DNA of 63,717 bases, the filler included, from Squatina squatina (Eukaryota): the NCBI GenBank assembly GCA_031763465.1. It is 3 parts of 3 records of this genome, joined end to end, with 100 filler letters (N's around TTAATTAATTAA, not from the genome) between each part and the next. Parts side by side here need not be neighbours in the genome. Positions count along the whole stretch, not along the records: positions 16,820 to 47,274 come from JARFOE010000001.1; 2 more parts are not named here. One strand, written 5' to 3'. Both the position numbers and the translations under genes were made by a program. Below, piece after piece: positions 12,446 through 55,914 of this stretch. The notes under the pieces are model-generated. The model ran no database searches and was not told where the DNA came from. It saw only the letters and a list, made by a program, of their open reading frames with translations. Within the stretch, counting starts at the first letter, position 1. Every line of letters begins with the position of its first letter.

Positions 12446-12470
12446 ACAGTGTGTACTGATCAACACTTAC

Positions 12471-12652
12471 CCGTTTATCAATGTCACCATGCTGTAACTG
12501 GACAAAGCGAGCACTGATAGCAGCAATATAGCTTTGTTGATTTGAGAAAGCCACACGCCCTGCTCCTTTTGGGTACTTCAGCTCAGGGTCTGTATCAATG
12601 CCCGCATAGCAGACCCCTCCATACAGCCGATCCATGATCATAGCCAATTCAA
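12471..12652 (-). CDS. CPEB4: CPEB2/3/4-family penultimate exon (RRM2)
   Basis: (V)ELAMIMDRLYGGVCYAGIDTDPELKYPKGAGRVAFSNQQSYIAAISARFVQLQHGDIDKR; TTGCAG acceptor, GTAAGT donor; 182 nt; joins in frame to 11068. Confidence 0.92.
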
Positions 12653-15291
12653 CTGCAAGAAAAAACAAAATCCTATGCTTACAAAATAATTTCAACTTCC
12701 TTTTCCCCATGATTCAAAAAACATTACTTAATAATGCTTTTCTCCCAATTCACAACTACTACAAAAAGGACCTAGAATTAAAATTCTCCCATTTCTTTAA
12801 TACACTTTTCAAGTACTTCTTTCATTATACATTCTCTTCCAGATATGTTATAATCAATTGTTTGCCAATATGAAATTGAAAACAAAATGTGATGCAAAAC
12901 AGAAATAGTCCTTTTTCAAAAAAAAAAGTTTGCTTCTTCCTAAACCGTTTCAAAAAAAGTGGTTGAGTGTCCAAAAATTTACAGATTCAAATTCAAAGCA
13001 CACGGCTGCTTCACTCAATTTGCGAATGTTTAATCAGGCCCCAACTGGGACACTGCCTGGAAGAGTAGCCTCAACACCCTTCACAAGAGGGCTCAAATTC
13101 CGAATCTCGGTCTTGTTCATTCTTTGCATTTGCCCTCCCTCAGGACATGGGTTTATGAAAAGAAAAAAAGTGTGGAAAAATATTTGGTCAGGAACCATGA
13201 CCATTGCCCACACTGTCCAAACAAGTATGCTGAAAAATTGACATAGTAGCTGTGCGAAGAGGATCCTTGGAGATGTCTGCACACTCGACTATATTCACTA
13301 ATTTCCTGAATGACTGCAGCAACAGGAATATAGGTATTGAACATGTTTGGGAATGGAGGATGGAGGGAAGGAGGAAAGAATAAAAATAACTCTGGCTGCT
13401 GATCATTTTCTTTTTGCTANNNNNNNNNNNNNNNNNNNNNNNNNNNNNNNNNNNNNNNNNNNNNNNNNNNNNNNNNNNNNNNNNNNNNNNNNNNNNNNNN
13501 NNNNNNNNNNNNNNNNNNNGAAAAATGATAATGGCTATCTCAGTGAGTTACAAAGATCAATGGATTCCAGGGATTGATTGCCATCTTTAAATAAAGGTGT
13601 TCATAGAAAGTTAAACCACAAGAGTGATGGTCTTGATGACTCGTCATTAAAACAGAGAACTGAAATTTACAGCTTCAGATTATTCTTTGGCATCATTTTT
13701 ATAAGCATATCATGGAGATTGACTTCACTGCATTTTTTTTTTGCCATCACTGGGCATTCGTGATTGATGACAATGGATAGAAGGATTATAACAATCCCTA
13801 AATTTATCAAGAATATCACATCTGATTAAATGTATACTCCTTTTCTGGTAAAGATCAACACAAAACCAGCTCCTAGAATTCAAGATTAACGACTAAGTTC
13901 ACCTGGAGTAATTATAAACTGCATTAAGAATTTTTGAATGCAAAATTCATTTGCCATTGATTTTGCTGTTATTGTAATGGCATGGAGATAATTAATGAAC
14001 ACCTTGCTGCCAGGAATTTATTATTTTCTTGCTTTTCACTTGAATTACTTCACACAGGTTATAAAAAAGTGCTTTCGATGGCAATTATACTGCTGGTAGT
14101 GACTGCCTGCTCTTTTAAAAGCAATAATATCACTTGAAATGTCACAGATGAGCTTGAAATGGTGAATTAGAAGAAAAAGTAATTTAACATATATACATAT
14201 CTATAATTACAGACATGTCATTAATGAAAACCTAAATCTTTACAATGTCGCAGATACAATAGAAAAATATTTTCCAAGTGTTGAAACATGTGATTTTAAT
14301 AAATTATACATTTACAGAACACCAATACTGGCTATTCATGTAGAGATAAGGACAACTTTGTTTGCCTTTGTTCTTGTAACATCTTTGTGAAATGAGGCAT
14401 AAGAGAAGGAAGTTACTATCTAAGCAGTTATTTCAAGGAATGGCAATTTAAAAAATCAGCCCCAAAGGATAAAGCATTTTAGAGACAGCTGATGTTTTCT
14501 TGTGGAGATGAACAAACATTGAGATTTTTTTCTCATTGATCACAGCCGCACATGTAGTAGGGACAGTTAGTGAAATAATGAGGATAACCTGTCTGCAAAA
14601 TATCAGTGAAAGTGATTAGTTAATAATACAGAACAAAAAGGAACATCCATGAAGTAGCAGGGCAGTTTATTAGAACATTAAATCAAGTGAAAGCCATCTA
14701 TTATAGTTGTATGGTTAAACATGCCCAATAGGGATCCAAAATTGTTATAGTTAAAACCACACCAACTGGTGCTCACACCAAACTCAAAAGGGAAACTTTT
14801 AATGTCTAATTGGAAGTAGTTCAGTAGGCTCTTGAACAAACCAAACTGGAACGAGGCAGCAAGGATTGCTTTAAACTGTTTCTCCAATCAGAAAGTGTGC
14901 CTCAAATGCCTCTCCTGTATTGTTATCAAGCTGAATCATAATCCAACATTTTTTTTTTTAATATGACTACTTTGCAGTCAATAGATTGAGGAAAAAGTGA
15001 AGTCAGCTTTATGCATCTCAAAAGATAAAAAGCAGAGGTCTAGAATGAAATATAATGTACAATGAAAACATGATATGCAATTGAATATAAAAGTCTAAAT
15101 AAAATATACTTGCAGTTACATAATCCATTTCATGTTGAACTTTCTCAAAATACTTCACATAAGGAATTATTTTTTGTTTTGAAGTGCTGTGACTTAGGTT
15201 TAAAAAATGTAACATGACTAAATTACTGGCCTAGTCATTGTGCTGAAGTACTATACTATGAATACATTATAGTAATTTTTCATAGTTTTAC

Positions 15292-17251: not shown

Positions 17252-17521
<270 letters not shown>

Positions 17522-20397: not shown

Positions 20398-20556
20398 ACT
20401 GCAACCCAAGTTAGTCCATAAGCAACAGTGTGGGAGACTCATGAAACATATCGATTACTACTATCACTAAGGAGAAAGGAATTGGATTATCAAAGGCAAC
20501 GCAGTGGAACTGTGCTCACTGTCACACTGAATGCCGACTAAAACAGTTTCACTGAC

Positions 20557-20713
20557 CTTTTGCGAGACATCCTCTTCGGGTAGTGGTAAGGGGTGACGAC
20601 TGAACAATACCGGTCCAGGCTGATGAAACACAGGGTGACGATGGAGGCCGTGCAGAACATGACATCGAAGGAGATCCAGACTTTGCAGAACTGTCTGCCA
20701 AACATCCACATTC
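20557..20713 (-). CDS. Exon of an aminergic class A GPCR (ECL1-TM3-DRY-ICL2), subtype unassigned; 5' end lost in an N gap
   Basis: MWMFGRQFCKVWISFDVMFCTASIVTLCFISLDRYCSVVTPYHYPKRMSRK(R): WxFG, C3.25, D3.32 and DRY are present; phase-2 donor AG|GTCAGT at 20557/20556; no stops. Confidence 0.88.
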
Positions 20714-26176: not shown

Positions 26177-26762
26177 ATGAACTCTATGGGCTTGCATGAG
26201 CACCAGCATTCGAGCTCAGCCCGTCTCAGTCCCAAAAGAGCGCACGAGGTCTCCGAGATGGCAGTCTACTGCGACAACTTCAATATGCTCCACCAGCAGA
26301 ACCTCCACGTCTCCCAGAGGACGGGCAACTACGCCCTGGGGGAGTACCACGGGCCGGCCAACCCATACCTGTGGCTCAACGGCCCAGGGGGGGTCAACGC
26401 TTCCCCTCCTTACCTCCACGGCAGCAGCTCGGCCTCCTTGGTGGCCGCTTCCTACGGCTCCCCGAAGCAGTTCCTGCCCGGCTCCTCTGGTTTCGCCGGC
26501 GGCGACTTGGGCTGGCTGTCCCTCACCAGCCAAGAGGAGCTGCTCAAGCTGGTCAGGCCCCCGTACTCCTATTCCGCGCTGATCGCCATGGCCATCCAGC
26601 ACGCCCCCGAGAAGAAGCTGACTCTGAGCCAGATCTACCAGTACGTAGCCGAGAACTTCCCCTTCTACAAGAAGAGCAAGGCGGGCTGGCAGAACTCCAT
26701 CCGGCACAACCTGTCGCTCAACGACTGCTTCAAGAAAGTGCCCAGGGACGAGGACGACCCAG
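26177..26762 (+). CDS. FOXI3: Forkhead box I gene exon 1 (FOXI3/FoxI1c-type); exon 2 not found
   Basis: MNS...EMAVYCDNF...NPYLWL...[79 protein letters not shown]; phase-1 GTAAG donor at the conserved FoxI intron. Lies downstream of EIF2AK3 in the same orientation, as human FOXI3 does. Confidence 0.9.
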
Positions 26763-27299
26763 GTAAGACCAGGGTTTCACAGGAATTTATTTTACAATCA
26801 TAGGAGCAAGAGAACAGCACAGAAGGAGGCCATTCGGCCCAGCGTGCTCTTTGAGAGAGCGATCCAATTAGCTCCATTCCCCCTGCTCTTTCCCGTAGCC
26901 CTTGCACAATTTTATTCATCTGATTCACTGACCCTGGTCTGTTTTTTTAGTTTTAAAAACTCGTAGTCTAAACTCACCCTGATANNNNNNNNNNNNNNNN
27001 NNNNNNNNNNNNNNNNNNNNNNNNNNNNNNNNNNNNNNNNNNNNNNNNNNNNNNNNNNNNNNNNNNNNNNNNNNNNNNNNNNNNAGTTTTAGTTAGATTT
27101 TAGTTAGAATGAGGCTCTGATCTTTGAATTGTGCATTGTTTATATTCAGATGAATATTCGTGGTAGAACTCAATTTAAGGCTGTGAAGTGTGTAAATATA
27201 TTACGGTTGTTATAACATTGCCACCACCTGCTGGTACAATGCGGGAATACTACTTATGAACAATAAATACACAGAATATCATAAACAAGATCATTTAAA

Positions 27300-28187: not shown

Positions 28188-29563
28188 NNNNNNNNNNNNN
28201 NNNNNNNNNNNNNNNNNNNNNNNNNNNNNNNNNNNNNNNNNNNNNNNNNNNNNNNNNNNNNNNNNNNNNNNNNNNNNNNNNNNNNNNCGTCACATTAACT
28301 TACCAGTTTGATTGTCAGATGCTGGCAGACCTGTGGTACATTCCTAGTGAAACCACCTCCTTAGGTGTGTCTCTGTGGCTCTTGAGGCAGCAGTGTCAAC
28401 TCATTAACCTTACGGCTCTGTTGGAGATGGGATTGTCATGGACAGCACTGCTGTAAGGCAAATGCACCAAGACTTCACCATCCAAGGGACATTAGGACCC
28501 TGAGGAAGCCACTCAGTTTGTGGTAAGTCGAATTCATTAGCGTGGCTCCATAAAGAAACCTCACGATGTTTCTCCTAATTACTTCTGACACTCGCGGAAT
28601 GACTTTGGCATCCTTCCAGATCACACTGTCACTTACGCTGCGTAATAAGCTGCTATTGTTGGCCCTTCCATCATGTTTAGATTGTTTTGTATTAACAAAG
28701 TGGGACAAGGCATTATATTTTTAAGTGAGGAAGCACAGTCCCCCTATTGTAAAAGCGTTCAATTATGAGGTCTTTTCCGGGGTACAGTGTGAGGTTAACT
28801 TAGGCTATTTCTGACTTACAAGTGGGCAAAGAAGTAGAAAAAGGATGAATGGACAACTTTTCAACAATATTTGAATATATTAAATATATGTATATACAAG
28901 AATCCAGTGGATTTAAATTATTTCCTAATTCTTCTAGCTGCCAGGATAGACAGGAAACAATAGAGAGTTCAAGGGATACGCTNNNNNNNNNNNNNNNNNN
29001 NNNNNNNNNNNNNNNNNNNNNNNNNNNNNNNNNNNNNNNNNNNNNNNNNNNNNNNNNNNNNNNNNNNNNNNNNNNNNNNNNNGTCCGGGTCTCTGGAGTG
29101 GGCCCTGAAGCCTCAGTGAGTGTGCTGCCCTGCTGAACCACTGCTGACGCCGTATGCCATAAGATTGAGTCCACACGGAGGGAAGGGCTGAGTGTTGTGG
29201 CTGGGGCGCTCCTCCATGGTATGCTGCTTCGGTACCACCAGGGGGCGCTGCTCGCCGCGGTGCATTCTGGACGAGCTGAGGGCGTTGGCCATCTACCTGT
29301 CGCCCCCTTCTGTATCGCAGTTGACCACAGTGGTGGGGGGGCGGGGGGGTGTGCGAGGGCAACGTTTTGCTAATTGCAGTGTGTCGTGGGCGAGATGAGG
29401 GCGTTGTTCATGTTCCGTCACCTTCGCTACCGCCGTTCATCATTGTAGGTTGGTGGGGCGGGCGGCGCGGCTGAGATGGTGGGGTTGGTCGGGCTGCCTC
29501 CACTGGGGCTGTAATGGCTCCCCTTCCGGTCTCTAACTCCCTCGGGCCACCTCTCGGTTTCAG

Positions 29564-29721
29564 AATCCCTGACCACCCCCCACAAGCAGTCACGCCGACG
29601 CAGCATTGTCCACGCCATCTTCTGCTGCATCTCCAGCGACAATGACGACGCCGAGCACATCGTGGTCAGCAGCAACAACAACTCCTCGCAGCTGGCTGAT
29701 GGGAAAACCAGCTCCATCAAG
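29564..29721 (+). CDS. Probable exon 2 of a CTDSP/SCP-family (small CTD phosphatase) gene, divergent
   Basis: ctctcggtttcag acceptor, AAG|GTAGG donor; 158 nt, phase 1-0; SLTTPHKQSRRRSIVHAIFCCISSDNDDAEHIVVSSNNNSSQLADGKTSSIK resembles the K.PRSR.I...LFCC...NG...K segment of CTDSP1/2/L. Confidence 0.65.
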
Positions 29722-29789
29722 GTAGGAGGCACAGCGACCCCCGGGCTTTAGAGCACAGGTTTGGAGTCGGGATAGATCTAGCTGAATTT

Positions 29790-30405
29790 ACACTAGGGGA
29801 GTGAGAGATAGGTGGGGTGGGGAAGGGAGGTGTTGTGGGGCTGAAGGAGTTTACAGAGACAGGGAGAGGGCGAGGCCATGGAGGGATTTGCAAACAAGGA
29901 TGAGAATTTTGAAACTGAATCGTTGATTAATTGGGAGCCAATGTAGGTCAGCGAGCACAGGGGTGATGGGTGAACGGGACTTGGTGTGAGTTAGGACACA
30001 GGCAGCCACATTTTGGATAACCTTAAGTTTACGTAGGGTAGAAAGTGGGAGGCCAGCCAGGAGTGCAGTGGAATATATCCTCCTTCCTCCCTATCTCTCA
30101 TGTTCTCCAGCCTCACAACTACCCCCGAGATATCTGCGCTCCTCTAATCCTGCCCTCGAGCATCCCTGATTATAATCGCACAACCTTCAGTGGCCGTGCC
30201 TTCAGTTGCCTAGGCACTAAGCTCTGGAATTCCCCCCCTCAACCTCTCTGCCTCTCTACCTCTCCTCCTTTAAGTCCTCCCTCTTTGACCAAGCTTTGGT
30301 TATCTGCCGTAATTTCTTCTTATGTGGCTTGGTCAATTTTTGCCTTATAGCACTCGTGTGAAGCATGGCACATTTCACTACGTATATAAATGCAAGCTGT
30401 TGTTG
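29790..30405. mobile_element. Two adjacent L2-type fragments in opposite orientation (- about 29790-30070; + about 30070-30405)
   Basis: First part matches minus-strand L2 (GAGGCCATGGAGGGATTTG.AAACAAGGATGAGAATTTT); second part reads GRAFSCLGTKLWNS and ends TATATAAATGCAAGCTGTTGTT. Confidence 0.7.
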
Positions 30406-30611
30406 CTATAGTAAGGACTCAAATGTAAAAATGAAAAAATAGGGGAGAGATTGAAATCTTGAGGGTTTTCACACTCTCAAGGTGGGAAATATGTAAGGAA
30501 GCAGGGTGGACNNNNNNNNNNNNNNNNNNNNNNNNNNNNNNNNNNNNNNNNNNNNNNNNNNNNNNNNNNNNNNNNNNNNNNNNNNNNNNNNNNNNNNNNN
30601 NNNNNNNNNNN

Positions 30612-32078
30612 TTGGTCAATATTTGTGGGAGGCTCCTGGGATTGAGTCAATATTTGCAGGAGTTCCTGGCAATGTGTGAATGTTTGCAGGGGTTCCTGGG
30701 AGTGTGCCAATACTTGCAGGGGTTTCTGGGAGTGTGTCAATATTGTGAGTGGTTTCAGGGAGTGTGTCAATTTCTGCATGGGTTCCTGGGAGTATGTCAA
30801 TATTTGCAGGGGTTCCCGGGAATGTGCCAATATTTGCAGGGTGTCCTGGGAGTGCGTCACTATTTGCAGGAGTTCTTGGGAGTGTGTGAATGTTTGCAGG
30901 GGTGCCCGGGAATGTGCCAAGACTTGCAGGTGTTTCTGGGAGTGTGACTATATTTGTGAGAGTTTCCTGGGAGTGTGCCAATGTTTGCAGGGGTTCCCGA
31001 GAGTGTGTCAATATTTCTGAGGTTCCTAGGACTGTGTCAATATTTGCAGGGGTTCCTGGGATTGTGTCAATATTTGTGGGAGGTTCCTGGGAGTGTGTCA
31101 ATATTTGTGCGAGTTTCCCGGGAGTGTGAATATGTTTGCAGGGGTTCCCTGGAGTGTGTCAATATTTGTGGGAGGTTCCTGGGAGTGCATCAATATTTGC
31201 GATAGGTTCCTGGGAGTGTGTCGATACTTGCAGGGGTTCCTGAGAGTGTTTCAATATTTTCAGGTGTTCTCACCAATGTGTCAATATTTGCAGGGTTTCC
31301 TGGGTGTGTGTCTATATTTGTGAGAGGTTCCTGGGATTGAGGCAATATTTGCAGTGGGTCCTGGGAGTGTGTCAAAATTTGTTGGAGGTTCCTGGAAGTG
31401 TGTCAGTAGTTGGGATAGGTTCCCTTGAGTGCCTCAATATTTGGGACAGGTTCCCAGGAATGTGCCAATATTTGCAGGGGCTCCTGGGAGTGTGTCAATA
31501 TTTGCCGGTGGTCCCTGGGAATGTGTCTATATTTGCAGGTGTTCTCACCAATGTGTCAATATTTGCCGGGGTTCCTGGAGTGTGTTGATACTTGCAGGGG
31601 TTATTGGGAGTGTCTCAATATTTGTGAGAGCTTCATGAGCGTATGTCAATATTTGCAGGTGTTCCAGGGAGTGTGTCTATATTTGTGACAGGTTCCTGGG
31701 ATTCAGTCAATATTTGCAGGGAGTCCTGGGAGTGTGTCAATATTTGAGACAGTTTCCTGGGAGTGCTTCAATATTTTCAGGGGTTCCTGTCACTGTGTCA
31801 ATGTTTGCAGGGATTCCCAGAGTGTGTCAATATTTTTGAGGTTCCCGTGAGTGTGTCAAAATTTGCAGCAGTTCCTGGGAGTGTGTCAATATTTGCAGGG
31901 GTTCCTGGGAGTGTCAATATTTGCAGGGGTTCCTGGGAGTGTGTCGATATTTGCAGGGGTTTCTGGGAGTGTGTCGATATTTGTGTGAGGTTCCCAGGAG
32001 TGTGTTGATGTTTGCAGGGGTTCCCTGGAGTGTGTCGATATTTTCCGGGGTTCCCTGGAGTGTGTCAATATTTGTGAG
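30612..32078. repeat. Minisatellite, about 30-bp unit, roughly 48 copies, N-bounded on both sides
   Basis: Consensus GTGTGTCAATATTTGCAGGGGTTCCTGGGA; generates the spurious CQYLQGFLGV and GTPANIDTLP ORFs. Confidence 0.95.
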
Positions 32079-35000
32079 NNNNNNNNNNNNNNNNNNNNNN
32101 NNNNNNNNNNNNNNNNNNNNNNNNNNNNNNNNNNNNNNNNNNNNNNNNNNNNNNNNNNNNNNNNNNNNNNNNNNNNNNTTGTTAATTGACGGCTCTCTCC
32201 TCTTTTCAGAATGTAGACTCTTTTGGTTCTTTGGTCTAATGTGTACCAATCCTGCCAGAAAATGTCAATTCTCTTTTCCTTTTCCCTTTTTGAAGAACAA
32301 TAAAGGATTTAGAGGTTTAGCACTAGTTCAGGAAGAGATCTGTGAATAATCCCTTCATTGACACTCCTCAACATTGGGAGGAAGTAACTGAGCTCTGCCA
32401 GATTGACATATCAAAGACAGCTTCTAATTATGTCATGCTGATTCTGACCCAAAGGCACACAAACTAGTCTTAATCCAAGGTCCCGGCCCCAGTAACTCTG
32501 ATGATCCTTTTTCCATCGAATACAACCCAGTTATCAGGCAATGGGCCCAGTTATATTTTATCACAAGCAATTATAAAAGGGCTTTATTCAAGTGGTGTTG
32601 TGCTCAGGTGTTTGCATCTCCAGTAATTCATTGCTAAACAGATTGGGGTAGAAATTGGCCCTTGTTGTGCCTGGTTTTTGCCTGGGATGGGAAAATGAAC
32701 CAATTCTGGGTCATACCCTCAAGCACCTGAGCTGAGTCTGCATTACAGGCGCCGCCATATTGGTACAGGCTGTTTTTCAGCCTGCCTAAAACAGATGTTG
32801 GCCCCTTCCATATGTAAATGAGGGACTAACACCTGTTTTAGGTCTTGCTGTAATTGTTTGCTGGTCAGCAGAGCAGGAGCTAGACCAGTTCCGCTTGGGA
32901 TTCACCCGACTCCATAGCATGCGTGAACAGCCACCCCACTCCCACTCCCACCCCATTGCTGCTCCAACTCCCCCTTCCCTCTTTCCAATGGGACCTTTCC
33001 TGGNNNNNNNNNNNNNNNNNNNNNNNNNNNNNNNNNNNNNNNNNNNNNNNNNNNNNNNNNNNNNNNNNNNNNNNNNNNNNNNNNNNNNNNNNNNNNNNNN
33101 NNNCTCTCTCCACAGATGTTGCCTGACCTTTCCAGCATTTCCTGTTTGTTATGCCAGCTTCTCTAGTCTATCCAGATAACTAAAGTCCCTCATCCCTCGA
33201 ACCATTGTCGTAAATCTTTTCTGCACCCTCTCTAAGGCTTTCGCATCCTTCCTAAAGTGCGGTGCCCAGAATTGGACTCAATACTCCAGTCGAGGCCGAA
33301 CCATAAAGGTTCACCATCGCAGGTGCTGAAGCCAACGGCTACTCAATACAGTTCTCAAATTGTTAAACCTTTATGGTATTTGGGACTAATTTCTTGAAAG
33401 TTAACAACTTTTAAGTTATGTACATAAGATTTAGTCAAGAGCTGCAATAAATTTAATTTGCTATTTGTAGGCCACAAGGAAATAAAATTTGTGGGACGAT
33501 GGGGGAGGGAGGTAAGAACCAGAGAATCAGATTTTAAACAACTTAAAATGAGTGGAACTCTTTAACTCACTTCCCTTTTATTTAAACATTGCCTGCAGCT
33601 CCAATGTTTTCCTTCTTCAAGTTACAGAAACTTGCTCAGCAGCATCTCACAGTCATCTGCCCTGAGCCAAGAGCACACAGCTCATGGCGGTGTTCAGCAA
33701 CTTCAAAAAGGCCGGGTGGATTAAGAGTGTTACAGAGAAAGCATTATCAAGCTTTATTTAAGAGATCGCTTTCAGTGTTACATACCTAGCTCGTCATTCC
33801 CGCTATGCAGGTTTTTCTTAAAAGGCAAACTTTATTTGCTCTAATCCACCCGTGTTTTCCTTCTGTTGTATTTTTGGGAGCTCGGGACGCACTGCTGATC
33901 TCCTCCGATCCCATCATTCTTTTGATGTCGAGCTTCCCAATCAGAGGCAGCACGTCTCAGGGCAGCAATTGATGTTGATTAGGCCTAATCAGGCACTGAT
34001 GGCTCCTCCTAATCCTATCTAAAGGAGAACAATTCACTGTATCATAATACAGAAATCTAATTAGTAGGGGCAGGGAAGCTTGTAATAGGCAGGATCAAAA
34101 GAGAATTCAAGCCAGCCCTTTGAGTTGATGTTCTACACAGCAAAAACTTTTTCATCAGATTGTGGCCCGGGTCATATAAAAACTGGCAATGGCCTGGTGG
34201 AACCCTCACCGAAACATTTCTGAGCAGATTATCCTTTTGTAAAGTGCTAGGGGCTCTTCTTCAAAGCACTGTAGCTATCATTTCCATCTGGTCAAACCTA
34301 CCTCTGGGCTTTTGATATGAAGGTTACATTAAAAAGGTCTCCAACAATCATTTGTCTGTCCTTGAAGTTCCTCAAAAGACAGTTCCACAGTGGGCCATGT
34401 GTGTACTGCTAATCAAAACCTGAAGCTGTCCAAAAGAATCGTCACTGATTCATTTGACAAAGGATGGGACCAAATGCTAAGAAACAAAGAATGAACGGAC
34501 ATTTGTATANNNNNNNNNNNNNNNNNNNNNNNNNNNNNNNNNNNNNNNNNNNNNNNNNNNNNNNNNNNNNNNNNNNNNNNNNNNNNNNNNNNNNNNNNNN
34601 NNNNNNNNNGGGCGGTAATGCCAGTGGGACGGGAGCGAATTTTGCTCCCTAAAGAGTTTCTTCCAAGACCAATTTGCCTCTGTTAATGACAAGAGTAAAT
34701 GTGGGTGGTCTAAAAAAAAGTACAACGCACACAGTCTGTGTCTACAATGTAAGGTGTATATTAAATAGAGAGCTGTGTTATATAAACAGACATCTGCACT
34801 GTCTGCCAAGTGGGGCTGTAGATTGCATATCAGTCAGTCGAACTCGAGAACAAAGTATTCAGGTGACTAATAAACAGCAACATCAAAGTCGGAGACAAAC
34901 CCACATACATTTTGTCTGCAGGAAGAAGTAATTACAGCATTGTAATTTTCAACCTCAAAATTCACGTATTTAATTGACAGTTTGACAAGCACCAGAACCC

Positions 35001-40004: not shown

Positions 40005-40431
40005 ACAAGTGAAGTCCTCTTGTATCCTGGTTCGACAGGCTGCAGACAAACCCCTCCCTGACCTTGGGTCTGTGATAGGCGAGGAATCGGCTGGCCCTCA
40101 GGACCCGGACCTGGGCGTGTTCCGTCTCCCCGCCGGCGACGTTTTCACGGAGGAAACGACAGTGGTGTGGATGGCAGTCCTTTCCCTGGGCTTTGCCCTG
40201 ATCTGTGACCCCTCCGAGAACCTAATGCTGGCGGAAAACACCCTGAGATTGCTGGTGAAGTATTTCACGGAGCATTTGAAACTACTGGTTCAATGCAGTG
40301 ACGTTGTGCTGAAGACTGACAGAATCGAGGCGATCGTGAATACATTTTTGCCACACGGGCAACTGATGTTTATTAACTGTTGCTTCATTCAGAGTCTGGA
40401 GAAAGAGCTGAATGCTTCAATGTTCAAGTGA
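40005..40431 (+). CDS. AP5S1: AP-5 complex subunit sigma-1, terminal coding exon
   Basis: tttccag acceptor (phase 2); QVKSSCIL...GVFRLPAGDVF.EETTVVWMAVLSLGFALICDPSENLMLAENTLRLL...DRIEAIVNTFLPHGQLMFIN..FIQSLEKEL. Confidence 0.9.
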
Positions 40432-54359: not shown

Positions 54360-54585
54360 AGAACATAAAAATTAGGAGCAGGAGTAGGCCACACAGTCCC
54401 TCGAGCCTACCTCGTCATTCAGTAAGATCATGGCTGATCATTGATCTTTGACCTCAACTCCACTTTCTTGCCCTGTTTCCATATCCCTTGATTTCCCCTA
54501 GAGTCCAAAAATCTATCTCACTCTTGAATATACTCAATGACTGAGGTAGAGAATTCCAAAGATTCACAAATCTCTGAGTGAAGAA
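54360..54585 (-). mobile_element. CR1 LINE 3' terminus
   Basis: AGAACATAAAAATTAGGAGCAGGAGTAGGCCA...GGTAGAGAATTCCAAAGATTCAC...GAGTGAAGAA. Confidence 0.8.
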
Positions 54586-54685
54586 NNNNNNNNNNNNNNN
54601 NNNNNNNNNNNNNNNNNNNNNNNNNNNNNNNNNNNNNNNNNNNNNNNNNNNNNNNNNNNNNNNNNNNNNNNNNNNNNNNNNNNNN

Positions 54686-55060
54686 AGAATGCGGGCCCTG
54701 TGCCCATTCTTGGGAAGAATGGGGGCCCTGTGCCCATTTTTGGGAAGAATGCGGGCCCTGTGCCCATTTTTGGGAAGAATGCGGGCCCTGTGCCCATTCT
54801 TGGGAAGAATGGGGACCCCGTGCCCATTTCTGGGAAGAATGGGGGCCCCGTGCCCATTTTTGGGGTGGATGGGGGCCCTGTGCCCATTTGGGGTGTGGTA
54901 GCCCTGTGCCCATTTTGAGGGTGGCGGGGCTCTGTGACCATTTGGGGGGGCCCTGTGCCGATATTTGGGAAGAATGGGGGCGCTGTGCCCATTTCTGGGA
55001 AGATTGGGGGCCCTGTGCCCATTTTTGGGCCGAATGGCGTCACTGTGCCCATTTTAGGGA
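54686..55060. repeat. Minisatellite, about 30-bp unit, about 12 copies, decaying rightwards
   Basis: Consensus GAATGGGGGCCCTGTGCCCATTTTTGGGAA; generates the spurious MGTGPAFFPK and GPVPIFGKN ORFs. Confidence 0.92.
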
Positions 55061-55914
55061 GCACACTAATTTCTAGGCCGGGTTGTTTTGGGTGGAGACC
55101 CCTGATCAGAATTGTCTCCATACTATTTTTGAACTTGACCGAGGACAGGAAAGAAGATGTCCGCAGGTGCTACCATGGAGACTGGGCCAAAGATGCTGGA
55201 GAGAGAAGTCGAGAAAATGTATATGAAAACACAATAGAGTAGGTGGATTGCATGGAGAGATGGGAGCAGTTATTAGAGAAACATTGAATTTCACAGAGAT
55301 ATCACATATCGTAAGTTGACATGACAAAGAAAGAGTGAAATTCCTGTCCCTGTGAAAAAAGGTTTTGGCAAATTGACAGGCACAAGCAAAAAGTGAAAAA
55401 TACAACATTGCTAGTTAACAGAACAAAATAAATAAGCTAAATTGTGCTGAAGAGAGGATCAGAATTTCTTCAAGCTAGACAGAGAAATGGCAGTGAATCA
55501 AACAGTTGAGATAAATAATAAACGTGCAAATACTGGTTCAAATCCTAGTCTGTAAGGTGTTAACTGATCTCAGCTGAGGGAGCAATATAAGCACTACATT
55601 TGGCCTCAGAATCCCTGGTTGAGGAATGGGACAATTAGTAATTGATTCTTGTGGCACAGTGCACGTCAGGTGAAGACAGCATTGGGCTTGGCTATGATGG
55701 CTCAAGTACTGACTGTACTGACACTCACTATCGAGGCTGTGCATGATTAATGGGTGAGGTACTGGAGGGCACTCAGTGCCCGTGGAAACTGTATTCCAGC
55801 AACAGTCAGCACCTTCAAGATAGGAGGGAGAAAATAGGGGGGAAAAAAGTTGGTGGCAGTTTTGCCTTTCATGCTTTTGACATATTTGAAGTGCCTTTAA
55901 GTGTTGTCAGATGT

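What the first reader, a model, noticed from the sequence alone, without database searches (positions are those of the whole stretch)
20557..20713. Hidden exon of an intron-containing aminergic GPCR that fits no standard mammalian subtype
Seen: a stop-free minus-strand exon, missed by the ORF track, encoding WMFGRQFCKVWISFDVMFCTASIVTLCFISLDRYCSVVTPYHYPKRMSRK, with a phase-2 GT donor at the end of ICL2. Established: D3.32, C3.25 and DRY mark biogenic-amine receptors, and D1-class and beta1/beta2 adrenergic receptors have intronless coding regions. Inference: the mix of beta-like SI.TLC, H2-like SLDRYC and D1-like Y.KRMS features plus this intron suggests a poorly characterised amine-receptor lineage retained in non-mammalian vertebrates. 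Its position antisense between EIF2AK3 and FOXI3 may be a scaffolding artefact.
Basis: partly seen in the sequence, partly recalled or inferred. Interest (0 to 1): 0.7.

Follow-up and report, generated by a model that had tools for sequence, protein, structure and literature searches.

The report
Orphan amine receptor missing from mammals
This is a real exon of a shark gene for an amine-sensing receptor that is kept almost unchanged from lampreys to birds and was not found in mammals; the group was already flagged as an orphan in 2015, and its signal is likely a serotonin-like or trace-amine molecule rather than histamine.

Summary
The exon is real. It is coding exon 2 (TM3 to ICL2) of an aminergic GPCR, identical (51/51 aa) to a catshark protein that RefSeq auto-names 'histamine H2 receptor-like'. 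It belongs to a tight family found in lampreys (2 genes), cartilaginous fishes (paralogues A and B), coelacanth, lungfish, bichir, sturgeon, gar, bowfin, eel, tarpon, amphibians, reptiles and birds; 0 of 67 species-named clusters are mammalian. The family is already in print as an orphan: Spielman 2015's 'Unknown' clade (exact accession match) and most likely Rinne 2019's GPR187/GPR181. Relatives' RNA-like contigs splice at the predicted donor. The position beside EIF2AK3 is likely real, not a scaffolding artefact (consecutive accessions in 4 of 11 species, same chromosome in the other 7). It is not HRH2, HTR4, HTR6, a beta or a D1 receptor: the shark has these separately. Its near-invariant pocket (Asp3.32; Ala5.42/Ser5.43/Ala5.46; Tyr6.51; Asn6.55) lacks the H2 aspartate and two catechol serines. 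Best guess: a Gs-coupled receptor for a serotonin/tryptamine-type or trace monoamine, untested. Its sister group is unresolved. New here: shark duplicates, conserved neighbour, pocket reading.

The parts
20557..20713 (-). Assembled part of coding exon 2 of the orphan aminergic receptor, paralogue A (ECL1 W, C3.25, W3.28, D3.32, DRY, ICL2)
   Evidence: (51/51 aa to P0087)
20551..20556 (-). Phase-2 splice donor GTCAGT after the AG of the ICL2 arginine
   Evidence: Sequence; RNA-like contigs of X15, X16, X17, X18 leave the window exactly at 20557 and continue with the next exon's codons
20714..20726 (-). 13-N gap that hides the acceptor and about 20 coding bases of the exon
   Evidence: DNA contigs of X1 and X2 span it with about 25 more letters than the window; RNA-like contigs give the missing codons
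17315..17482 (+). EIF2AK3 kinase-domain exon; conserved neighbour, tail to tail with the receptor
   Evidence: 98-100% to shark EIF2AK3; accession adjacency
26177..26770 (+). First exon of a forkhead gene (FoxI class by recall), head to head with the receptor
   Evidence: PF00250 E=9.2e-34; subtype and conservation of this side not tested

Best explanation
The stretch is coding exon 2 of paralogue A of a conserved orphan amine receptor of non-mammalian vertebrates, which likely binds a non-catechol aromatic monoamine (serotonin/tryptamine type or a trace amine) and likely signals through Gs and cAMP. Shown: exon, splice donor, family membership, seven-helix protein in relatives, pocket residues. 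Inferred: the amine is held by Asp3.32 with Tyr7.43/Trp7.40; the ring lies against Trp6.48, Tyr6.51, Phe6.52 and Phe45.52; polar contacts are limited to Ser5.43, Asn6.55 and Thr7.39, as in 5-HT4, 5-HT6 and TAAR-like receptors; the short third loop and long TM5 point to Gs. My odds by step: identity 0.95, Gs 0.75, ligand class 0.5.
For: Identity: 66 of 67 hits of the peptide are one family; full length, 70 of the 120 listed rows are 58-100% identical and the other 50 only 32-42%; P0016 is XP_002937327.2, listed in the 'Unknown' clade of PMC4338800. Family is one clade at 100. Selection: against paralogue B, 13 of 15 changed codons up to DRYC are silent; 13 of 14 listed positions that I checked in relatives' contigs are third codon positions. 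Splicing: 4 RNA-like runs of 3 studies leave at 20557; 2 more (2 studies, more distant) also run into the next exon. Pocket: 30 of 32 aligned family rows are identical at 24 positions; Ala5.42/Ser5.43/Ala5.46 in 104 of 104 held family proteins that cover TM5, Tyr6.51-Phe6.52-Asn6.55 in 104 of 105. Among 194 other receptors the A/S/A triad occurs in 3: two acorn-worm 5-HT4-like proteins and one TAAR-like fish receptor; HTR4 has C/S/A, HTR6 A/S/T. PMC8890504 (passages): HTR4 and TARLs respond to tryptamines, TARL1 also to phenylethylamines. Best ML tree puts the family next to HTR4/TAAR and octopamine-beta. Coupling: Y5.58 to TM6 span 56 aa against 47-76 in H2, HTR4, HTR6, beta, D1 and 112-266 in alpha2, 5-HT1, H1; predicted TM5 runs 201-243, mean pLDDT 79.9; top fold matches are beta1, H2, beta2, D1.
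Against: No ligand or coupling assay exists in what I could search. Tree support for the HTR4/TAAR neighbourhood is weak (SH-aLRT 56.5, UFBoot 91); one quick tree joined the family to all H2 receptors at 85.8; 10 of 11 constrained placements are not rejected. Human H2 is the best solved-structure match (227 bits against 204 for beta1 and 201 for 5-HT4) and shares Tyr6.51. By overall pocket score, invertebrate Dop1-type receptors tie or beat the serotonin receptors (18 of 24), although they keep three TM5 serines. Pocket residues predict amine ligands poorly. Ser5.65 and Lys5.68 differ from the Ala/Gln usual in Gs receptors (rule recalled). Exons 1, 3 and 4 of this paralogue are not in the own assembly, so intactness in this species is unproven. 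The RNA label of the runs is a tool guess and they are other species.
Confidence: 0.55

Rival explanations
1. It is a second H2-type histamine receptor, sister to the whole H2 lineage, that binds histamine without Asp5.42.
For: Best PDB match is H2; Tyr6.51/Phe6.52 and the E-x-K-A-T start of TM6 are shared; sister to HRH2 in PMC4338800 and 'near HRH2' in PMC6504862; family plus all H2 not rejected, p-AU 0.46.
Against: Asp5.42 and Thr5.46 absent in 104 of 104, while 6 of 6 vertebrate H2 rows have both; PMC4695389 (passages) names Asp5.42 as the predicted H2 imidazole contact; Asn6.55 against Phe6.55 in H2; vertebrate H2 groups with sea-urchin-type H2 at 98.9/100 without this family; family plus vertebrate H2 alone p-AU 0.030 (but 0.115 in the quick test); the shark has its own intronless HRH2.
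Confidence: 0.15
2. It is a receptor for octopamine, tyramine or a catecholamine: a surviving vertebrate offshoot of the octopamine-beta/Dop1/beta group that reads one ring hydroxyl with Ser5.43 and Asn6.55.
For: Family plus octopamine-beta is the second-best tree (delta lnL 3.2, p-AU 0.53), plus ADRB 0.37, plus Dop1-type 0.35; Trp3.28, Asn6.55, Phe7.35, Lys7.36, Thr7.39 match crab/annelid Dop1-type receptors; many RefSeq names say 'octopamine receptor-like'.
Against: Octopamine-beta, beta, D1 and Dop1 rows all have Ser5.42/Ser5.43/Ser5.46; the family has only Ser5.43. The names are automatic best-hit labels. PMC5282848 (passages) reports octopamine and tyramine receptors lost from most deuterostomes.
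Confidence: 0.2
3. It binds an amine outside the usual panel (for example a methylated or acetylated amine, agmatine or a polyamine) or works mostly by constitutive activity.
For: The combination Ala5.42/Ser5.43/Ala5.46 with Tyr6.51 and Asn6.55 occurs in none of 194 other receptors compared; long stem branch (0.5-0.7) then near stasis.
Against: All canonical amine-binding and activation motifs are intact; TAARs show that many pocket variants still bind common amines.
Confidence: 0.08
4. The window's exon is a dead or misplaced fragment in this species.
For: Only 1 of about 4 coding exons of paralogue A is assembled; the stretch is cut by 100-N gaps; the assembly holds at least one chimera in this family (L008).
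Against: 51/51 aa to a catshark protein, intact donor, conserved neighbour, flanking introns align with two relatives' contigs on both sides; the assembly has 1,152,659 contigs and drops exons of EIF2AK3 and HTR4 too.
Confidence: 0.03

Closest known systems
'Unknown' biogenic amine receptor clade of Spielman, Kumar and Wilke 2015 (PMC4338800)
   Same: Same family: their XP_002937327.2 is P0016, 94% or so to the exon (92%) and 90% to the shark protein over the 248-column core.
   Different: They had 10 sequences (birds, one frog, by accession) and proposed a tetrapod origin; the family is in lampreys, sharks, rays, chimaera and basal ray-finned fishes.
GPR187 (main text) / GPR181 (supplement table) of Rinne et al. 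2019 (PMC6504862)
   Same: Described as near HRH2, rooted by two lampreys, in gar, coelacanth, amphibian and 7 sauropsids: the same distribution as found here.
   Different: Match is by distribution only; I could not tie ENSPMAP00000006842 to a sequence. The paper's main text has no mention of sharks, lists no teleost, and uses GPR187A/B for another clade in its supplement.
Histamine H2 receptor (HRH2)
   Same: Best solved-structure score; 44-45% core identity; Tyr6.51, short ICL3.
   Different: No Asp5.42/Thr5.46, Asn6.55; introns at the end of TM2 and ICL2 where HRH2 reads through; separate gene in the same genome.
5-HT4 / TAAR-like (TARL) receptors
   Same: TM5 triad (C or A)/S/A, Phe45.52, Asn6.55; 44-50% core identity; neighbours in the best tree.
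   Different: Trp3.28, Tyr6.51, Phe7.35, Lys7.36; HTR4 introns lie in ICL1, at DR|Y and in ECL2, not at this family's sites; nesting with vertebrate HTR4+TAAR costs 20.7 lnL (p-AU 0.13).
5-HT6 receptor
   Same: Trp3.28, Ala5.42, Ser5.43, Asn6.55, Phe7.35, Thr7.39; 17-18 of 24 pocket positions.
   Different: 42% core identity; Thr5.46, Phe6.51; no ICL2 intron in the shark HTR6; not joined in the best tree.

Membership tests
Aminergic class A GPCR | Asp3.32, Cys3.25, DRY, Trp7.40/Tyr7.43, 7 helices | tested here: met
   First three in the window exon; the rest in orthologues; model with 7 helices plus H8
Spielman 'Unknown' clade / GPR187-GPR181 | Clade membership with a listed accession | tested here: met
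   XP_002937327.2 = P0016; family support 100; exon 51/51 to P0087
Spielman 'Unknown' clade / GPR187-GPR181 | Identity with Rinne's reference sequence ENSPMAP00000006842 | not testable with these tools
   No Ensembl look-up; the id is not in the supplement text; match rests on taxon spread
Paralogue A (EIF2AK3-linked) within the family | Closer to A than B copies; EIF2AK3 as neighbour | tested here: met
   48-51 of 51 aa to 12 elasmobranch A rows, 45-47 to 6 B rows; chimaera P0026, A by tree at 0.83, scores 45; neighbour
HRH2 | Asp5.42 and Thr5.46 | tested here: not met
   Ala and Ala in 104 of 104
HRH2 | Clade with vertebrate HRH2 to the exclusion of invertebrate H2 | tested here: not met
   p-AU 0.030, 0.031; 0.115 in the weaker quick test; vertebrate plus ambulacrarian H2 98.9/100
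HRH2 | No intron in TM2-ICL2 | tested here: not met
   Own HRH2 reads through both sites; this gene has introns at both
Beta-adrenergic and D1-class receptors | Ser5.42, Ser5.43, Ser5.46; intronless TM1-TM7 | tested here: not met
5-HT4 / TARL / TAAR | Nesting in the HTR4+TAAR clade; DR|Y intron (HTR4) | tested here: not met
   HTR4+TAAR+acorn-worm clade 96.7/100 without the family; DRY is mid-exon here, split in own HTR4. Sister relationship stays open
5-HT6 | Clade with HTR6 | tested here: inconclusive
   Not in the best tree, not rejected (p-AU 0.50); separate HTR6 in the same genome
Invertebrate octopamine-beta receptors | Clade membership; three TM5 serines; Tyr6.55 | tested here: not met
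   Octopamine-beta rows form their own clade at 99 and P0165 has S/S/S and Tyr6.55; sister position not rejected (p-AU 0.53)
Any ligand-defined class | Agonist profile and G-protein coupling | not testable with these tools
   Needs a cell assay

The most novel reading that the evidence does not exclude
This family is a separate bilaterian-age amine receptor type, older than the split of H2 receptors of vertebrates and sea urchins, that gives non-mammalian vertebrates a dedicated receptor for an amine not thought to have one in vertebrates (octopamine, tyramine or tryptamine), and that mammals and most teleosts lost independently.
Probability: 0.2. Interest if true: 0.75.

Novelty: new member of a known kind. 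Interest (0 to 1): 0.4.

Why it matters
A receptor whose binding pocket has barely changed from lamprey to duck (77-91% core identity to the shark protein, against 70-72% among three vertebrate HRH2 proteins) is doing something important, yet it is absent from the search results for mouse, human and zebrafish-type teleosts, which likely explains why nobody has paired it with a ligand. It is directly testable in chicken or Xenopus. It also matters for annotation: hundreds of bird entries named 'HRH2' or 'octopamine receptor' are this gene. As a discovery it is modest: the clade was flagged in 2015 and probably named in 2019.

Tried and rejected
Other exons of paralogue A: none in the window (tblastn) or the own assembly; the TM7-like hit on C922688 is a TAAR-type fragment. 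Lys7.36 with Glu2.65 as a unique cap: rejected, 14 of 194 other receptors have Lys7.36. A close invertebrate orthologue: none; best non-family hits are 32-45% identical and no invertebrate row joins the family with support; two odd rows (P0218, P0247) beside it in FastTree had 0.57 support and were left out of the 46-row set. The careful mixture-model tree did not finish (one search gave the quick tree); one search timed out and was resumed; constrained searches ran only 22 rounds, which biases their p-values low. The look-up of sequencing runs listed no holder on record as RNA and none above 0.30 share: no statement on expression in this species. A recalled chicken accession for EIF2AK3 next to the chicken receptor was not confirmed (one search found only the receptor's). 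Paper searches for a ligand or later study found none; PMC10244343 passages do not mention the clade. Earlier scan findings: nothing.

Full report
Setting. The window is a pack of three stretches; the finding lies in the second (16820-47274), which is cut by many N gaps and maps to G000:C1. The genome is an elasmobranch by its proteins and is highly fragmented (1,152,659 contigs).

On the minus strand 20711-20559 gives a stop-free 51-aa peptide with C3.25, D3.32 and DRY, followed by AG and a GTCAGT donor. It matches Pfam 7tm_1 and amine receptors of solved structure without a clear favourite. DNA contigs of two relatives align across both flanks and across the 13-N gap, with about 25 extra letters there. 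RNA-like contigs from four runs in three studies (X15, X16, X17, X18) leave the window exactly at 20557 and continue with codons for C-I-I-M; at the other end three of them continue through the missing codons towards exon 1; X19 and X20, more distant, also run into the next exon. These runs are other species and their RNA label is a guess, but none covers the intron flanks. So the exon is about 177 nt with phase-2 ends. Paralogue B in the own genome has the matching exon 1 donor and exon 3 acceptor. A bird contig protein that jumps from ICL2 to helix 8 (P0045) implies a third intron, so at least four coding exons (inference).

What it is. The peptide found 67 proteins among 67 candidates; 66 form one family, 75-98% identical over the exon, and one (P0069) does not. 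The full-length bamboo-shark protein gave 327 hits, 120 listed: 70 family rows at 58-100% and 50 others at 32-42%. Together that is 73 clusters, 67 with a species name: lampreys, chimaera, sharks, rays, coelacanth, lungfish, bichir, sturgeon, gar, bowfin, eel, tarpon, all three amphibian orders, turtles, lizards and birds. None of the 67 is a mammal and two are teleosts; only representatives' names were seen, plus the members listed, so loss in mammals and most teleosts is inferred from absence. Cartilaginous fishes have two copies, A and B, and lampreys two. The window's peptide equals the catshark A protein P0087 at 51 of 51 residues. In the own assembly B's exon 1 (L018), exon 3 (L006) and part of exon 2 (L008) were found; of A only this exon. 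The shark has separate HRH2, HTR4, HTR6, two HTR7-like, beta, D1-class, alpha, TAAR, 5-HT1, H1 and muscarinic loci (subtype labels from tree position, and recall).

Neighbourhood. The + strand exon at 17315-17482 is EIF2AK3. Of 11 species with accessions for both genes, four are consecutive: Scyliorhinus torazame (XP_072353744-750, then 751/753), S. canicula (XP_038649157/158), gar (XP_006629631/632) and Xenopus tropicalis (XENTR_v10000244/245); the other seven (five sharks, one skate, X. laevis) are not consecutive but share a chromosome of the same length; a bee-eater has both on a 56,462-base contig; an older S. torazame assembly has them on different small scaffolds. Accession order is a proxy for gene order, but it makes a scaffolding artefact unlikely. 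The forkhead side was not tested in other species.

Position in the tree. On 245-248 core columns the family is one clade at full support on a long stem. Vertebrate H2 joins sea-urchin-type H2 receptors at 98.9/100 and HTR4 joins TAARs and acorn-worm 5-HT4-like receptors at 96.7/100, both without the family. Of 11 forced placements only family plus vertebrate HRH2 is rejected (p-AU 0.030; D1 0.060, vertebrate HTR4+TAAR 0.13, the rest 0.33-0.53); a quicker two-tree test did not reject it (0.115). The best tree places it beside HTR4/TAAR and octopamine-beta with weak support; another beside all H2. So it is likely not an ohnologue of HRH2, and its sister is unknown. The 46-row set kept 46 of 237 aligned rows, chosen by me to cover each group. 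Its two introns are shared with none of the own-genome receptors fetched; D2-class genes were not fetched.

How it likely works. The pocket is nearly invariant: W3.28, D3.32, C3.36, F45.52, A5.42, S5.43, A5.46, W6.48, Y6.51, F6.52, N6.55, F7.35, K7.36, T7.39, W7.40, Y7.43. Asp3.32 marks amine binding and Asp5.42 is the predicted H2 imidazole contact (PMC4695389, passages); this family lacks it. The three TM5 serines of beta, D1, Dop1 and octopamine-beta rows (their role in catechol binding is recalled) are reduced to one. The same TM5 triad occurs in a TAAR-like and two 5-HT4-like proteins among 194 others, and such receptors respond to tryptamines and phenylethylamines (PMC8890504, passages). 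Hence a non-catechol aromatic monoamine is my best guess, at about even odds. Loop length, TM6 start, predicted long TM5 and fold neighbours resemble Gs-coupled receptors; the model leans on known structures and proves nothing about coupling. Against: H2 is the best structural-sequence match, and Dop1-type receptors score as well over the whole pocket.

What is in print. PMC4338800 (abstract and passages) describes an 'entirely unknown clade', sister to HRH2, of 10 sequences, one of which is our P0016, and suggests a 5-HT ancestry. PMC6504862 (passages and part 2 of 4 of the supplement) names a clade near HRH2 with two lampreys, gar, coelacanth, amphibian and sauropsids GPR187 in the text and, by the same counts, GPR181 in the table. 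PMC5282848 and PMC10244343 (passages) give context only. Ten searches found no ligand, expression or shark study; subscription journals are not covered, figures were not seen, and unread supplements of these papers may hold shark sequences.

Verdict. A real, correctly read exon of a known orphan clade: a new member of a known kind. Added here are the chondrichthyan duplicates, retention in eel and tarpon, the conserved EIF2AK3 neighbour, the splice confirmation and a testable ligand prediction. Interest 0.4.

Noticed in passing
L008 / L045 (G000:C46:5418142-5418579, minus): The 5' part of paralogue B's exon 2, with its acceptor, is fused in frame at LDRYC to the TM4-TM5 part of HRH2, inside the HRH2 locus. 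A relative's contig (X2 record 17) carries B exon 2 through to a normal donor, so this is likely an assembly chimera rather than a real hybrid receptor.
   Followed up: partly
L018 / L041:496-771 (G000:C4:5199.5 kb): Paralogue B's exon 1 sits on the same strand between exons of an ArfGAP gene (PF01412; SMAP type by recall), next to a 100-N gap; nesting or misplacement not resolved.
   Followed up: partly
L006:2-304 (minus): Paralogue B exon 3 of the own genome has Arg where relatives have Met in TM5 (FLIRC against FLIMC) and Gly at the N-R/W-T site; read error or decay of B.
   Followed up: no
L026 (G000:C1:23616948, about 100 kb from the exon): A second amine receptor, HTR7-like with a DR|Y intron, lies on the same scaffold, preceded by an exon that looks like an SLC4 transporter (recall).
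   Followed up: no
window 40099-40431 (+): Last exon of AP-5 complex subunit sigma-1 (PF15001, E=1.8e-40).
   Followed up: partly
window 29427-29747 (-): Frame with a CTD small phosphatase-like N-terminal motif by recall (S-I-x-H-A-I-F-C-C); no Pfam match.
   Followed up: partly
window 12450-12713 (-), first stretch of the pack: Exon that looks like the CPEB2/3/4 RRM region by recall; no Pfam match at this length. Separate stretch, not linked to the receptor.
   Followed up: partly
window 30400-32100 and 54550-55170: Low-complexity tandem repeats that give long pseudo-ORFs on both strands.
   Followed up: no
(P0035-P0037, P0072, P0075, P0079, P0083): Many bird proteins named 'HRH2 protein' belong to this family and not to HRH2; one basking-shark copy is named 5-HT4-like and one sawshark copy D5-like.
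   Followed up: yes
tree (P0116-P0136, P0143 and neighbours): A large, well-supported clade of annelid, mollusc-type and chelicerate amine receptors with S/S/S and Tyr6.55 ('invX') is separate from octopamine-beta and Dop1; mostly unnamed, identity not worked out.
   Followed up: no
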